From Burkholderiales bacterium (GTDB lineage Bacteria > Pseudomonadota > Gammaproteobacteria > Burkholderiales > SG8-39): a stretch of DNA of 64,000 nucleotides. The position numbers were made by a program, and so were the translations under genes. Each line of letters starts with the position of its first letter. The first letter of the stretch is position 1. Shown here piece by piece: positions 8,387 through 13,462 of this stretch. The DNA is taken from positions 4,775-68,774 of the forward strand of contig JBBDXL010000179.1 in NCBI GenBank assembly GCA_040902335.1, given 5' to 3'. The notes beneath the pieces are model-generated. The model ran no database searches. It was not told where the DNA came from and saw only the letters and a list, made by a program, of their open reading frames with translations.

Positions 8387-10945
<2,559 letters not shown>

Positions 10946-10963: not shown

Positions 10964-11053
10964 GGAGAGATGGCAGAGTGGTCGATTGCGGCAGACTCGA
11001 AATCTGTTGTACGCGTAAGCGTACCGGGGGTTCGAATCCCTCTCTCTCCGCCA
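10964..11053 (+). tRNA. tRNA-Ser (anticodon CGA), type II with long variable arm, CCA encoded
   Basis: GGAGAGATGGCAGAGTGGTCGATTGCGGCAGACTCGAAATCTGTTGTACGCGTAAGCGTACCGGGGGTTCGAATCCCTCTCTCTCCGCCA. Acceptor stem GGAGAGA/TCTCTCC, anticodon loop CT-CGA-AA, T-loop TTCGAAT. Confidence 0.9.
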
Positions 11054-11057
11054 ACTT

Positions 11058-11513
11058 TCAACTACTTGCGGCTGCATCGCTTCTCGTCACCGAATCGCTG
11101 TTGTGACGAATTTGTGCCGTAAGGCTGAGGCGCGCTGCATGTGCCTTCAGATGCTCGGGGGCGAGGTGCGCATAGCGATTCACCATTTCCAGCGTTTCCC
11201 AACCTCCCAGCTCCTTCAGTACGTAGAGCGGCGTGCCTAGCTGCACGTGCCAGCTCGCCCAGGTGTGGCGCAGATCGTGCCAGCGGAAATTCTCAATGCC
11301 CGTCCGCTCGCACGCCGCCTTCCACTCCTGCTGAGCCCCGTAGCAGTGCCAGGAATCGATCTGGCCGCCATCCGGGCCGACGAAAACGCACCGCAGGTGC
11401 TTCCCGAGCTGCTTGCGAATCACCGCGACCGCGTCATCGTTGAGCGGTAAGCCGATTGCCCTGCGCGCCTTCGCCTGGTCTTTCCGCTTCCCCTCGCGTG
11501 ACGGGGTCGCCAC
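11058..11513 (-). pseudogene. Tyrosine recombinase/phage integrase, C-terminal catalytic fragment only
   Basis: The 151-aa ORF holds only the catalytic end (..FRWHDLRHTWASWHVQLGTPLYVLKELGGWETLEMVNRYAHL), with the HxxR and final Tyr motifs. The roughly 200-250 aa of N-terminal arm/core-binding domains of full integrases are missing. Confidence 0.8.
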
Positions 11514-11549: not shown

Positions 11550-11641
11550 TTACATAAACATATAACTCTTGTATCCATAAACACTAGACTCTTGTGATGA
11601 TATGCAATAAACTCTTGTAACCGTAAACATCTAACTCTTGT
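11550..11641 (+). repeat. Four tandem 23-bp direct repeats (consensus approx nnnnATAAACAnnTAnACTCTTGT) ending on the Fic start codon
   Basis: The ACTCTTGT core occurs at 11565, 11588, 11611 and 11634, an exact 23-bp phase. The region is strongly AT-rich against the ~68% GC background. Confidence 0.85.
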
Positions 11642-13193
11642 GCCCAAGCCCAACGTAAAACTTGCTTCTGCCCTGGATGCTCTGAAGGGCCTCCAACACG
11701 GCGGACTCCAGGCCATCGCTGGACCGAAGCTTTCACGGACGGACCGTGAGGCTCTGCTGCGTGCTGGCTTCCTCAAGGAGGTCATCCGCGGCTGGTACAT
11801 CCCCCGCCGTCCAGACGAGGCAGATGGCGACAGCACCCCTTGGTACGCCAGCATGCGCGAGTTCATTGCCGACTACGCGCAAGAGCGATTCGGCGATCGC
11901 TGGCACGTCAATGCGGAGCAATCAGTCTCACTGCGGTCCGGCGAGAGGACCATTCCGAAGCAGACTCAAATCTGGGCAATTGAGGGCACCAACCAGACTG
12001 TGCAGCTGCTCCACGGTTGCTCGCTTTTCATTTACAAGGCTGTGAAGTTACTGCCTTCTTCGCCCGTGCAGGATTGCGGGGGGCTTCGCCTCGTGGAACT
12101 GCCGGCGGCACTTGTGGCTGCGAGCCCGACGCTCTTCGCACAGAATCCCATCGCGGCGCAGATTGCACTTGGTTCGTTGCCGGATGCTTCAGATCTGCTG
12201 CGGATATTGCTCGATGGGCCGCATCCGTCGGTGGCTGGGCGCCTTGCCGGTGGCTTCCGAGCTATTGGCCGAGAGGCGCTTGCCAATGAAATCTTAGGCG
12301 CTATGCGCGGCGCCGGCCATACTGCAAGCGAAGTAAATCCCTTCGAGAAACCTCGCCCGGCTCTATTGCCCGGCGCGCGATCCGAGTCGCCTTACGTGCA
12401 GCGGCTGCGCTTGATGTGGGCAGAAATGAGGGAGCGAGTAATCCCGGCATTCCCGCACGCGCCAGGGGCGCCAAAGGACATTGATGTACTTCTCAAGGAC
12501 GTGGAGGCGCGCTATGTGACCGATGCCTATCACTCGCTTTCCATAGAGGGTTACCGCGTTAGCGCCACCCTTATTGAGAAAATCCGTGATGGAAATTGGA
12601 GTCCAGATGACGACGAGAAGGATCGCGCGACCCGCGATGCCATGGCGGCGCGCGGCTATTTCGAGACCCATAACCTTGTCAAGGATGATCTCGTACGCGT
12701 GTTCAAGGGCGAAAACGCGGGCACTGTGTTCCGCAACGCCGTCGCCCGCTGGTATCAGGCGCTGTTCACCCCAAGCGTGCAGGCCGGAATCCTCAAGGCC
12801 TCCGGCCTCGCGGGATACCGCAACGATCAAGTGTTCATCCGCGGCGCGCTGCACGTTCCGCTGTCGAAGGAGGCGGTGCGGGATTGCATGCCTGTTCTAT
12901 TCGAGCTTCTCGAAGCAGAAACCGAACCCCAGGTACGCGCCGTCCTCGGTCATTTCCTTTTTGTCCATATCCATCCCTACATGGACGGAAATGGCCGGCT
13001 CGCGAGATTCTTGATGAATTTGATGCTTGTTCCCGCGGGCCATGTTTGGACGGTAATTCCGGTAGAGAGGCGCAAGGACTACATGGACGCGCTCGAGCAG
13101 GCGAGTTCCTTCGCAAACATCGCGCCCTTCGCCGCTTTCATAGCCGACCTGGCGAAAGCGCAGGCGAAGCAGCCGCTCCCGCGGCCGCGCTGA
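11640..13193 (+). CDS. Fic/DOC-family protein (517 aa) with a long N-terminal extension
   Basis: Fic active-site motif HPYMDGNGRLARFL. An inhibitory-helix-type motif S-x-x-x-E-G (SLSIEG) lies upstream in the same polypeptide. The N-terminal ~270 aa contain a wHTH-like segment (SRTDREALLRAGFLKEVIRGWYI). GTG start. Confidence 0.88.
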   Translation: MPKPNVKLASALDALKGLQHGGLQAIAGPKLSRTDREALLRAGFLKEVIRGWYIPRRPDEADGDSTPWYASMREFIADYAQERFGDRWHVNAEQSVSLRSGERTIPKQTQIWAIEGTNQTVQLLHGCSLFIYKAVKLLPSSPVQDCGGLRLVELPAALVAASPTLFAQNPIAAQIALGSLPDASDLLRILLDGPHPSVAGRLAGGFRAIGREALANEILGAMRGAGHTASEVNPFEKPRPALLPGARSESPYVQRLRLMWAEMRERVIPAFPHAPGAPKDIDVLLKDVEARYVTDAYHSLSIEGYRVSATLIEKIRDGNWSPDDDEKDRATRDAMAARGYFETHNLVKDDLVRVFKGENAGTVFRNAVARWYQALFTPSVQAGILKASGLAGYRNDQVFIRGALHVPLSKEAVRDCMPVLFELLEAETEPQVRAVLGHFLFVHIHPYMDGNGRLARFLMNLMLVPAGHVWTVIPVERRKDYMDALEQASSFANIAPFAAFIADLAKAQAKQPLPRPR

Positions 13194-13261
13194 TCGTGGC
13201 GAACAAGTATTTCAGCTATGCTGCGTTGAGAGGCGCCGGAAAACCGGCTGTTAATCCGCGA

Positions 13262-13290
13262 GAATCGCTGTGCCGAATTTGTGCCGTAAG
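13262..13290 (-). pseudogene. Second, tiny remnant of an integrase 3' end
   Basis: GAATCGCTG-TGCCGAATTTGTGCCGTAAG matches 11092..11123, the 3' end of the integrase fragment (..LTAQIRH..), apart from a 3-nt indel. Confidence 0.5.
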
Positions 13291-13402
13291 TGAGATTGGA
13301 CTGCGCTTTTTGACATTTGAAGCGGAAGACAAGGCAAGCGCTGCGAGCTTGATTACATTACGTTTCTGAATTTGGAGAGTTTGGGCCGCTCTCGCCTCCC
13401 GC

Positions 13403-13462
13403 GACTCGAAATCTGTTGTGCGCGTAAGCGTACCGGGGGTTCGAATCCCTCTCTCTCCGCCA
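13403..13462 (+). repeat. Duplicate of the 3' 60 nt of tRNA-Ser(CGA) (att-type direct repeat)
   Basis: GACTCGAAATCTGTTGTGCGCGTAAGCGTACCGGGGGTTCGAATCCCTCTCTCTCCGCCA has 1 mismatch to 10994..11053. It has no 5' half, so it is not a functional tRNA. Confidence 0.88.

What the first reader, a model, noticed from the sequence alone, without database searches (positions are those of the whole stretch)
11550..13193. Four phased 23-bp iteron-like repeats run into the start codon of a long Fic protein with an AbiEi-like wHTH N-terminus and an internal inhibitory motif
The core ACTCTTGT recurs at exactly 23-bp intervals (11565, 11588, 11611, 11634), each time preceded by (A/G)TAAAC(A). The last copy supplies the GTG start of the Fic ORF. 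The 517-aa protein has the Fic active site HPYMDGNGRLARFL and an S-x-x-x-E-G motif (SLSIEG), the class-II intramolecular inhibitory helix signature. Its ~270-aa N-terminal region includes ..SRTDREALLRAGFLKEVIRGWYI.., which looks like the winged-helix of AbiEi-type antitoxin/regulator domains. Inference: this is a single-polypeptide, self-inhibited and self-regulating AMPylator in which the N-terminal domain binds the iterons, analogous to AbiEi autoregulation. It would be a candidate toxin or defence-type module on the islet remnant. Alternatively the repeats are a remnant replication or partition site of the lost element.
Basis: partly seen in the sequence, partly recalled or inferred. Interest (0 to 1): 0.7.

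Follow-up and report, generated by a model that had tools for sequence, protein, structure and literature searches.

The report
Self-repressing AbiEi-Fic fusion with operator repeats
The four 23-bp repeats are most likely the operator on which this gene's own product sits: a protein whose front half has the predicted fold of a DNA-binding AbiEi antitoxin and whose back half is a self-inhibited Fic enzyme. The same gene-plus-repeat unit recurs in many bacteria and on plasmids, and I found no paper describing it.

Summary
ACTCTTGT occurs four times in the 64 kb, all between 11565 and 11641 at exact 23-nt steps. The last copy contains the GTG start of a 517-aa Fic protein.

- Residues 1-240 model confidently (pLDDT 91.6). 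Their only significant structural matches are the two solved AbiEi-family antitoxins, Rv2827c and S. agalactiae AbiEi. Both are monomers that each bind a 23-bp repeat over their own promoter.
- No sequence profile detects this domain.
- The C-terminal half is a class II Fic, closest to FICD. Its inhibitory motif SLSIEG and catalytic motif HPYMDGNGRLAR are intact.
- In 38 of 44 orthologous loci (46-88% identity, several phyla, plasmids included) the upstream DNA has its best self-similarity at a 23- or 24-bp lag; most show 3-6 visible direct repeats. Control regions show this in about 10% of cases.
- The repeat core changes with the protein clade, not with the host.
- No neighbouring gene is conserved.
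- Promoter-like hexamers lie inside the arrays.

Best reading: a single-gene, autorepressed, autoinhibited AMP-transferase module carried on islands and plasmids. DNA binding, toxicity and any defence role are untested. Replication, partition and integrase-site readings are rejected. I rate it a new variant of known kinds.

The parts
11553..11644 (+). Array of four head-to-tail 23-bp units: 11553-11575, 11576-11598, 11599-11621 and 11622-11644. Each ends in the core ACTCTTGT (11565, 11588, 11611, 11634). Proposed operator.
   Evidence: The same array is seen in close relatives (alignment A6).
11585..11590 (+). -35-like hexamer TAGACT, formed by unit 2. Inferred.
   Evidence: 8 of 12 hexamer positions match, with a 17-nt spacer. 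Unit 2 reads TAGACT in 6 of the 8 aligned relatives.
11608..11613 (+). -10-like hexamer TAAACT, formed by unit 3. Inferred. It would put the transcription start near 11620, so unit 4 would lie in a roughly 19-nt leader.
   Evidence: A at hexamer position 2 and T at position 6 are invariant in 8 relatives; L001 reads TAAAAT. An alternative -10 at 11598-11603 (TGATAT) aligns with a perfect TATAAT in L057.
11640..13193 (+). 517-aa ORF encoding the AbiEi-like / Fic fusion protein. GTG start, stop codon at 13191-13193.
11640..11813 (+). Residues 1-58: predicted winged helix-turn-helix. Helices 4-20 and 33-42 (candidate recognition helix LSRTDREALLRA), then a beta-hairpin wing at 45-55 (FLKEVIRGWYI). 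Net charge +5.
   Evidence: Conserved basic residues: K7, R33, R36, R50, R57.
11814..12323 (+). Residues 59-228: AbiEi-type C-terminal domain. One long helix (66-84), a row of strands (108-152) and six helices (154-224).
   Evidence: The topology matches the published description of the AbiEi C-terminal domain (PMC7319586). Conserved R83, K133, R150, R201, R207, R211, R223.
12534..12551 (+). Inhibitory-helix motif SLSIEG (residues 299-304; Glu303). This is the class II Fic signature.
   Evidence: Aligned with FICD TVAIEG. S299, L300, S301 and E303 invariant; I302 and G304 at least 90% conserved. Weak VbhA hit at 291-312.
12390..13190 (+). Residues 251-517: Fic (Fido) domain region, closest to FICD/HYPE.
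   Evidence: Pfam Fic 46.2 bits against a cut-off of 24. PDB phmmer hit to FICD, E 5e-16. Foldseek hit to FICD, E 2.7e-8.
12972..13007 (+). Catalytic Fic motif HPYMDGNGRLAR (residues 445-456).
   Evidence: H445, P446, G450, N451, G452, R453 and R456 are invariant and D449 is at least 90% conserved in 42 orthologues.
10964..11053 (+). tRNA-Ser(CGA). Its last 60 nt (10994-11053) are the left copy of the islet's direct repeat. Context only.
11058..11513 (-). C-terminal 151-aa fragment of a tyrosine integrase; the N-terminal two thirds are missing. Context only.
   Evidence: Pfam Phage_integrase, profile positions 60-171 of 172.
13403..13462 (+). Second copy of the tRNA-Ser 3' end (59 of 60 nt identical). 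Right border of the 2.35-kb islet. Context only.

Best explanation
The repeats are the operator of the gene they precede.

The protein has two halves. Residues 1 to about 230 form a complete AbiEi-type antitoxin/repressor module: a winged helix-turn-helix plus the AbiEi C-terminal domain. Residues from about 250 to 517 form a class II Fic AMP-transferase. Its active site (HPYMDGNGRLAR) is predicted to be blocked by its own inhibitory helix (SLSIEG, Glu303).

By analogy with AbiEi and Rv2827c, which bind as monomers with one monomer per 23-bp repeat, I infer that one N-terminal module occupies each 23-bp unit, head to tail. In the window this would cover the -35-like element (unit 2), the -10-like element (unit 3), and the short leader with the GTG start (unit 4). 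That would shut off the protein's own transcription and possibly translation initiation.

The gene would then be a stand-alone module with two brakes on a potentially toxic enzyme: promoter autorepression and intramolecular inhibition. It is carried by genomic islands and plasmids. Here it sits in a decayed 2.35-kb islet at tRNA-Ser.

What is shown: the repeats, their conservation and co-variation with the protein, the predicted folds, the motifs, and the lack of partner genes. What is inferred: binding, repression, stoichiometry, promoter position, toxicity, the trigger and the target.
For: Repeats are real and non-random.

Fold of the N-terminal module.
- The model of residues 1-240 has pLDDT 91.6 and pTM 0.85.
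- Its Foldseek PDB hits are Rv2827c (E 6.8e-5) and AbiEi (E 2.2e-4 and 5.4e-4). Nothing else scores below E 0.15.
- The next hit, ANT(2'')-Ia, is an adenylyltransferase. The AbiEi structure paper reports the same kind of next-best matches for AbiEi itself.
- The topology matches the published AbiEi description: wHTH, then one helix, a strand row and six helices.

What is known of AbiEi proteins. AbiEi and Rv2827c are monomers. Each binds a 23-bp repeat overlapping its own promoter and autorepresses (PMC3985639; PMC7319586).

Arrays at orthologues.
- The best self-similarity lag (tested range 15-34) of the 220 nt upstream is 23 or 24 in 38 of 44 orthologous loci. In 33 of 44 the identity at that lag is at least 0.58.
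- Controls: shuffled sequence 4 of 44; coding sequence 3 of 44; upstream regions of neighbouring ORFs 28 of 269, and 8 of 269 at the 0.58 threshold.
- Most loci show 3-6 copies and a few show 2. Plasmids of Agrobacterium, Variovorax and Sulfitobacter are included.

Co-variation. The repeat core differs between protein clades: ACTCTTG, ACTATTGCG, TAGTG, AAGCGAA, AACCTAA, AAAAGCT, AAAAACG, CCCTAGC. It follows the protein tree across host phyla.

No partner. No neighbouring gene is conserved within 4 kb on either side.

Promoter. Promoter-like hexamers lie inside the arrays in many loci. The 23-bp unit equals the -35 to -10 start-to-start distance (6 + 17).

Fic half. Pfam Fic scores above its cut-off. 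FICD is the best solved relative by sequence and by predicted fold. Key residues of both motifs are invariant and the rest at least 90% conserved.

Precedent. CccR is a class II Fic that represses its own promoter through an attached DNA-binding domain (PMC9755527).
Against: - No binding, repression or toxicity data exist for any member.
- No sequence profile links the N-terminus to AbiEi: no Pfam AbiEi model at E up to 10, and no PDB sequence hit. The link rests on a predicted structure with moderate TM-scores (0.44-0.55).
- Known AbiEi operators are inverted repeats. These arrays are direct repeats.
- The candidate recognition helix is almost identical (SRTHRERL) in clades with different cores, so the specificity determinants are not explained.
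- The consensus promoter scan found nothing in the window at its default stringency. The promoter assignment rests on 8-of-12 matches.
- The window-clade start codon has no Shine-Dalgarno sequence.
- Of the 55 representatives that are at least 480 aa long, 12 lack the canonical Fic motif. By my reading of the printed C-termini, about eight have a degenerate motif, three look frameshifted and one is unclear. Enzymatic activity is therefore not essential in every lineage.
Confidence: 0.65

Rival explanations
1. The protein is mainly a transcription factor and the Fic half is a regulatory or sensing domain, not a toxin. The array is its operator, but the module's job is to control other genes, or only itself. 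No growth-arresting or defence activity exists.
For: About eight full-length family representatives have degenerate Fic motifs, so catalysis is dispensable in some lineages. The Fic half is closest to FICD, a reversible regulatory AMPylase/deAMPylase, not to known Fic toxins. [quoted passage not shown]
Against: No other copy of the operator pattern exists in the 64-kb window. No conserved neighbour could be a regulated target. In the window protein and the 42 aligned orthologues, the key residues of both motifs are invariant and the rest at least 90% conserved. The family sits on plasmids and islands, typical of selfish or defence cargo.
Confidence: 0.15
2. The array is a promoter-architecture element, or the site of some other host protein, and the Fic protein does not bind it. 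Examples would be phased bends or a nucleoid-protein or global-regulator site. The N-terminal module would then act only as an intramolecular antitoxin.
For: The arrays are A+T-rich and contain the promoter-like hexamers. In AbiE systems the AbiEi C-terminal domain alone gives antitoxicity. The recognition helix barely changes while the cores change.
Against: A host factor would not need a core that changes with the Fic clade and stays the same across Alpha-, Beta- and Gammaproteobacteria and Acidobacteria. The cores are G+C-containing specific words, not A-tracts. The unit length equals the site size of the only characterised relatives of the N-terminal fold. No conserved second gene exists.
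Confidence: 0.1
3. The repeats are iterons or a centromere-like site left from a lost plasmid or island replicon.
For: Direct repeats of about 22-23 bp are the classic look of iterons. The locus is a decayed mobile islet.
Against: Arrays of the same kind sit immediately upstream of the orthologous gene at 38 of 44 loci, in unrelated chromosomal contexts. No rep or par gene is conserved nearby. The position relative to the start codon is kept. On large plasmids the gene is not at the replication region, although L054 lies near a RepB-related gene.
Confidence: 0.03
4. The repeats are arm-type binding sites of the neighbouring tyrosine integrase.
For: They lie 40 nt from the truncated integrase gene. 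Arm-type sites are direct repeats near int.
Against: No integrase gene is conserved next to the orthologues, and a tRNA gene lies within the fetched stretch in only 9 of 43 loci, yet the arrays are there. Array position is tied to the Fic start codon, not to the att sites.
Confidence: 0.02

Closest known systems
AbiEi / Rv2827c (COG5340) antitoxin-repressors of AbiE systems (described as type IV; a 2026 preprint proposes type VII)
   Same: Same predicted two-domain fold: a wHTH plus a C-terminal domain of one helix, a strand row and six helices. The operator unit is about 23 bp and overlaps the protein's own promoter. Multiple units are used; Rv2827c has four. Both are carried on mobile elements.
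   Different: No detectable sequence similarity. Here the module is fused in one chain to its presumed effector. That effector is a Fic domain, not a DUF1814 nucleotidyltransferase (AbiEii). The operator units are direct, contiguous, head-to-tail repeats in 3-6 copies, not inverted pairs.
CccR of Yersinia pseudotuberculosis, and SoFic-type class II Fic proteins with a C-terminal wHTH
   Same: A class II Fic with an intramolecular inhibitory helix is joined to a DNA-binding domain. CccR represses its own promoter by binding near -35 and -10, and has no separate immunity or antitoxin gene.
   Different: The domain order is reversed (DNA-binding module at the N-terminus here). The DNA-binding fold is different (full AbiEi module versus a simple HTH). 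CccR binds palindromes as a dimer. The SoFic models match only the Fic core here (NCBIfam 29.5 bits against a 550-bit cut-off).
FICD/HYPE (metazoan class II Fic)
   Same: It is the best solved relative of the Fic half by sequence (E 5e-16) and by predicted fold (E 2.7e-8). The inhibitory helix motif aligns (TVAIEG versus SLSIEG).
   Different: FICD has a membrane anchor and TPR repeats and no DNA-binding module. About 20% identity. Its target (BiP) is absent from bacteria.
Iteron-binding plasmid initiators (RepA/pi type)
   Same: In both cases monomeric winged-helix proteins bind (known for the initiators, proposed here) to phased direct repeats of about 22-23 bp next to their own gene.
   Different: No replication context and no Rep fold. 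The array overlaps the promoter and start codon of the gene. The unit is also found in chromosomes.

Membership tests
Fic/Fido domain proteins (Pfam PF02661) | Fic domain profile match above the curated cut-off | tested here: met
   46.2 bits against a cut-off of 24, residues 391-463.
Fic/Fido domain proteins (Pfam PF02661) | Catalytic motif HxFx(D/E)GN(G/K)RxxR | tested here: met
   HPYMDGNGRLAR at 445-456, with F replaced by Y. H445, P446, G450, N451, G452, R453 and R456 are invariant and D449 is at least 90% conserved in 42 orthologues.
Class II Fic proteins | Inhibitory helix motif (S/T)xxxE(G/N) in the same chain, N-terminal to the Fic core | tested here: met
   SLSIEG at 299-304 lies in a predicted helix (292-302). 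It is aligned by phmmer with the TVAIEG motif of FICD. S299 and E303 are invariant; G304 is at least 90% conserved.
Class II Fic proteins | Autoinhibition relieved by mutating the Glu, giving an active AMPylase | not testable with these tools
   Needs E303G and H445A proteins and an AMPylation or toxicity assay.
AbiEi / COG5340 antitoxins | Two-domain fold: N-terminal wHTH plus the AbiEi C-terminal domain | tested here: met
   Prediction only. Model pLDDT 91.6. The only Foldseek hits with E below 0.1 are 1zel (Rv2827c) and 6y8q (AbiEi), with TM 0.44-0.55 over 230-266 columns.
AbiEi / COG5340 antitoxins | Match to the family's sequence profiles (Pfam AbiEi models) | tested here: not met
   No AbiEi model for the window protein at E up to 1, nor for any of 42 orthologous N-termini at E up to 10. 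A profile search of PDB sequences finds neither 1zel nor 6y8q.
AbiEi / COG5340 antitoxins | Encoded next to a DUF1814 nucleotidyltransferase toxin (AbiEii) | tested here: not met
   No conserved neighbour in 42 loci. In the window the islet holds only the integrase fragment and this gene.
AbiEi / COG5340 antitoxins | Negative autoregulation through about 23-bp repeats that overlap the protein's own promoter | tested here: inconclusive
   Arrays of 23/24-bp units that overlap promoter-like hexamers are present and conserved. The units are direct rather than inverted, and binding was not tested.
SoFic-type proteins (NCBIfam NF046030; PADLOC SoFic) | Full-length match including the C-terminal wHTH | tested here: not met
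   NCBIfam 29.5 bits against a 550-bit cut-off. The PADLOC SoFic model matches only residues 295-511, to model positions 60-266 of 361.
Iteron-type replication origin | Adjacent cognate rep gene and origin features | tested here: not met
   No rep or par gene in the islet and none conserved next to the orthologues. DnaA boxes and an unwinding element were not looked for.

The most novel reading that the evidence does not exclude
The head-to-tail array is more than an operator: it is a template that lines up 3-6 copies of the enzyme. The Fic activity would then be switched by DNA-bound oligomerisation, or by the fused AbiEi-type antitoxin domain. Possible parallels are FICD, which from my own recollection switches between AMPylation and deAMPylation with its oligomeric state (not checked here), and AbiEi, which a 2026 preprint reports drives self-modification of its nucleotidyltransferase toxin. 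This would make the gene a single-chain toxin-antitoxin-operator device. Release from DNA would both derepress and activate it; the cue could be loss or dilution of the element, competing DNA, or infection. The clade-specific cores would also form a natural set of orthogonal repressor/operator pairs.
Probability: 0.15. Interest if true: 0.8.

Novelty: new variant of a known kind. Interest (0 to 1): 0.6.

Why it matters
According to the CccR paper, class II Fic proteins are about 80% of all Fic proteins, yet almost nothing is known about how they are controlled or what they do in bacteria.

This family is large. The N-terminal module alone finds 1,099 cluster representatives at 50% identity, and the gene is on 79 plasmid records. 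Every annotated copy listed among the 25 best plasmid hits, and every source name given in the protein searches, reads only 'Fic family protein', 'Fic/DOC family' or 'hypothetical protein'.

Three things follow if the reading is right.
- The AbiEi antitoxin fold is not tied to nucleotidyltransferase toxins. It can be wired in cis to a different nucleotide-transferring enzyme.
- Every member comes with a readable operator. Regulation can therefore be tested with a gel shift and a reporter, and operator specificity has diversified in a traceable way.
- The family may offer a set of naturally orthogonal repressor/operator pairs.

Tried and rejected
- Sequence-profile searches of the N-terminus found nothing: Pfam on 42 orthologues, an HMM against PDB sequences, NCBIfam and PADLOC. 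Only structure prediction gave a lead.
I used alignments of permitted database proteins instead (A2, A4).
- The whole-protein fold search was dominated by Fic hits, with AbiEi only at rank 50. I therefore modelled and searched the N-terminus alone.
- The metagenome scan for ACTCTTG-N16-ACTCTTG-N16-ACTCTTG was meant to test whether the array occurs only next to this gene. Of 120 loci, 13 were followed at once by the Fic family and 11 lay too close to a contig end to tell. Of the other 96, 12 belong to an unrelated array next to a 174-176-aa protein. The sampled remainder looked like generic 23-bp tandem repeats or satellites that happen to contain the 7-mer. The pattern is too loose, so the scan says nothing about exclusivity.
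- RNA readings were rejected. No Rfam family matches in the array, and the predicted folding energy is no better than shuffles (z = 0.09).
- The default promoter scan found no site in the window. Looser matching and comparison with relatives were needed.
- I tried to fetch a known abiE plasmid (DQ534432) for a profile-profile comparison with real AbiEi sequences. It is not in the collection.
- I looked for other architectures of the N-terminal module. Of ten atypical representatives, six carry Fic, three have no Pfam hit, and one (P0241) carries pentapeptide repeats.
- Literature searches for AbiEi, COG5340 or Rv2827c together with Fic found no description of this fusion.
Full report
1. THE OBSERVATION

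ACTCTTGT starts at 11565, 11588, 11611 and 11634. These are its only occurrences on either strand of the 64-kb window, against 0.49 expected by chance. The longer pattern TAAACA-N4-ACTCTTGT, with up to two mismatches, hits only these four sites against 0.02 expected. Tandem Repeats Finder gives period 23 and 3.9 copies at 11553-11641. The repeat finder gives spacings of 23, 23, 23.

Copies 1, 2 and 4 share the upstream half-element (C/G)ATAAACA. Copy 3 does not.

The GTG at 11640 lies inside the fourth core and is the first start codon after the stop at 11598. It is the true start. Homologues are 515-518 aa. Orthologues that start with ATG align residue for residue from position 1 (M-P/A-x-P-x-E-K-L-A...).

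2. CONTEXT IN THE WINDOW

- serS ends at 10945.
- tRNA-Ser(CGA) is at 10964-11053.
- A 151-aa C-terminal fragment of a tyrosine integrase lies at 11058-11513 on the minus strand.
- The array and the Fic gene follow.
- A second copy of the last 60 nt of the tRNA, 59 of 60 identical, is at 13403-13462.

The gene therefore sits in a decayed 2.35-kb islet. G+C falls to 43% over the array, against 60-70% around it.

3. THE PROTEIN

C-terminal half.
- Pfam sees only a Fic domain (residues 391-463, 46.2 bits) and a sub-threshold VbhA-antitoxin hit at 291-312, which is the inhibitory-helix region.
- The best solved relative is FICD/HYPE, by sequence (E 5e-16) and by fold of the full-length model (E 2.7e-8; pLDDT 81.6).
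- In the phmmer alignment, SLSIEG pairs with the TVAIEG inhibitory motif of FICD.
- In 42 orthologues S299, L300, S301, E303, H445, P446, G450, N451, G452, R453 and R456 are invariant. I302, G304, Y447, M448 and D449 are at least 90% conserved.
- This is a class II Fic with an intact active site.

N-terminal half.
- It has no hit in Pfam, NCBIfam or PDB sequences, even when 42 orthologues or their profile are used.
- Modelled alone, residues 1-240 give pLDDT 91.6 and pTM 0.85.
- The PDB fold search returns Rv2827c (1zel, E 6.8e-5, TM 0.55) and S. agalactiae AbiEi (6y8q, E 2.2e-4 and 5.4e-4). The next hit, at E 0.15, is the adenylyltransferase ANT(2'')-Ia.
- The predicted topology fits that paper's description: a wHTH (helices 4-20 and 33-42, hairpin 45-55), then one helix (66-84), a row of strands (108-152) and six helices (154-224).
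- Basic residues are conserved in both sub-domains: K7, R33, R36, R50, R57, R83, K133, R150, R201, R207, R211, R223. In AbiEi, basic residues in both domains are required for DNA binding.

4. THE REPEATS IN RELATIVES

Loci examined. A genome scan gave 53 loci with relatives of 46-88% identity. Three plasmid loci and one metagenome locus were added later.

Periodicity.
- Nearly all loci show phased direct repeats just upstream of the start codon on inspection.
- The best self-similarity lag between 15 and 34 nt in the 220 nt upstream is 23 in 11 loci and 24 in 27 loci, of 44 in total.
- Shuffled sequences give 23 or 24 in 4 of 44. Coding sequence gives 3 of 44.
- Upstream regions of 269 neighbouring ORFs give 28, and only 8 at identity of 0.58 or more. 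The Fic genes give 33 of 44 at that threshold.
- Most arrays have 3-6 units and a few have 2. They end between 1 nt inside the start codon and about 60 nt upstream of it.

The core differs by clade.
- Window clade: ACTCTTG. The close relative L002 has ACTATTGT.
- Paraburkholderia: ACTATTGCG.
- The large betaproteobacterial clade: (A/T)TAGTG, ACTAG or AGTAG.
- A clade spanning Alpha-, Beta- and Gammaproteobacteria and Acidobacteria: AAGCGAA or AACCTAA.
- Pseudomonadales: TAAAAGCT.
- An Agrobacterium pAt plasmid: AAAAACG.
- A Variovorax plasmid: CCCTAGC.

The core follows the protein tree, not the host. No ORF within 4 kb on either side is shared by more than three loci. A tRNA gene lies within the fetched stretch in 9 of 43 loci.

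The unit of inheritance is therefore 'array plus gene'. The only conserved candidate for the array-binding factor is the gene's own product.

5. PROMOTER

In many 24-bp clades a good sigma-70 pair brackets one repeat core. Examples are TTGACA-17-GATAAT, 11 of 12 positions, in L018, and TCGACA-17-TACAAC in L029, L030, L032, L038, L039 and L050.

In the window clade the hexamers are made from the repeats themselves. Unit 2 reads TAGACT (-35-like, 11585-11590). Unit 3 reads TAAACT (-10-like, 11608-11613). The spacer is 17 nt. Across eight relatives, position 2 of the -10-like hexamer is always A and position 6 always T. The unit length of 23 equals 6 + 17.

This would place the transcription start near 11620 and unit 4 in the leader, over the GTG. 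An alternative -10 at 11598-11603 aligns with a perfect TATAAT in L057.

Both assignments are inferences. The default scan found no promoter. Either way the promoter lies inside the array, so occupancy would repress.

6. MECHANISM PROPOSED

AbiEi and Rv2827c are monomers. Each binds one 23-bp repeat, overlaps its own promoter and autorepresses; Rv2827c uses four repeats within 131 bp.

By analogy, one N-terminal module would bind per 23-bp unit. Here the modules would sit head to tail and contiguous, covering about 92 bp from upstream of -35 to the start codon.

The Fic half is held inactive by Glu303. The result would be a one-gene module with transcriptional and enzymatic brakes.

CccR, a class II Fic with a C-terminal HTH, is an experimentally shown precedent for self-repression of a Fic toxin that has no separate immunity gene.

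Whether the AbiEi-type C-terminal domain also controls the Fic domain is open. In AbiE systems that domain alone neutralises the toxin. A 2026 preprint reports that AbiEi binds AbiEii and drives its auto-phosphorylation.

The trigger and the target are unknown.

7. RIVALS

- Iteron or partition remnant: rejected. The array accompanies the gene into unrelated chromosomal sites with no rep or par gene conserved nearby.
- Integrase arm sites: rejected for the same reason.
- RNA element: rejected. No Rfam hit in the array, and folding z = 0.09.
- Host-factor site or promoter architecture only: unlikely, because the core tracks the protein clade across phyla.
- Regulator without toxin function: not excluded. 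Of 55 representatives at least 480 aa long, 12 lack the canonical Fic motif. By my reading of the printed C-termini, about eight have a degenerate motif, three look frameshifted and one is unclear.

8. DISTRIBUTION AND NOVELTY

- The N-terminal module alone finds 1,099 cluster representatives (50% identity) at E up to 1e-3. Among the best 150, 55 are at least 480 aa long; the shorter ones mostly look like fragments or frameshifted calls. Of ten atypical representatives scanned, six carry Fic.
- It is on 79 PLSDB plasmids, 42 of them predicted conjugative: Rhizobium, Bacteroides, Agrobacterium, Vibrio, Sulfitobacter and others. It is in no phage record.
- The annotated copies among the 25 best plasmid hits are labelled 'Fic family protein'. 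Protein sources call family members 'Fic family protein', 'Fic/DOC family' or 'hypothetical protein'.
- The closest relative (92% identity) lies in an integrase-bearing island whose gene content I read as defence-like.
- Literature searches combining AbiEi, COG5340 or Rv2827c with Fic found no description of this fusion or of its operator arrays.

I file it as a new variant of known kinds (AbiEi-type autorepressor; class II Fic). It is a member of the Fic family. It is a structural relative, but not a sequence-profile member, of the AbiEi family.

9. LIMITS

- Nothing here shows binding, repression or toxicity.
- The AbiEi link rests on a predicted structure.
- The residues that read the variable core are not identified. 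The candidate recognition helix is nearly the same in clades with different cores.
- The metagenome pattern scan was uninformative about exclusivity.

Noticed in passing
window 13216-13300 (- strand); compare 11102-11123 with 13269-13290: A second remnant of an integrase 3' end (..SLTAQIRHSDS.., against ..SLTAQIRHNSDS.. in the 11058-11513 fragment; 21 of 22 nt identical). It lies to the left of the right-hand tRNA copy. The islet therefore looks like the product of several deletions, or of tandem islands.
   Followed up: partly
metagenome loci L072, L082, L098, L118, L120, L122, L124, L131, L139, L141, L148, L156: An unrelated array: cggttc(c/g)ggcAACTCTTG, three to four copies at 23-bp steps. 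It sits next to a divergently transcribed 174-176-aa protein (MPEPQVNSSPF...GYLRTL...). It may be an iteron-type site of another element. It was caught only because it shares the 7-mer.
   Followed up: no
family representatives P0159, P0174, P0190, P0212, P0215, P0222, P0240, P0266: Full-length members of the AbiEi-like/Fic family with degenerate catalytic motifs, for example HPYVDRNNLIGR and YPYTKGNGQLGR. Some lineages appear to have lost enzymatic activity while keeping the architecture.
   Followed up: no
L041:5001-6044 and L046:5001-5702: Truncated copies of the gene (348 and 234 aa before a stop). L046 keeps four repeats upstream; L041 keeps two. They are probably pseudogenes.
   Followed up: no
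all loci: The repeat period is 23 bp in the window clade (at least about 70% identity) and in L015. It is 24 bp in nearly all other clades.
   Followed up: partly
S. agalactiae abiE operator as printed in PMC3985639, compared with L013-L026 and L036-L047: The AbiEi half-site AAAATTGTAGTGTAAAAGCAACA contains GTAGTG and TAAAAGC. These are the repeat cores of two clades of this Fic family. It may be chance; significance was not assessed.
   Followed up: no
contig of P0001 (92% identical protein): There the gene lies in an integrase-bearing island. Neighbours include a ResIII helicase, HTH_3 proteins, DUF6932, a weak M78-peptidase hit (ImmA/IrrE-type family by my recollection) next to an HTH protein, and a ThiF-family protein. 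I read this as a defence-island-like neighbourhood.
   Followed up: no
window 11622-11642 and the same position in L001, L002, L008, L009, L010, L044, L057: In the window clade the last repeat core supplies the GTG start and there is no Shine-Dalgarno sequence. In other clades an ATG follows the array by 2-60 nt, often with a purine-rich stretch before it.
   Followed up: partly
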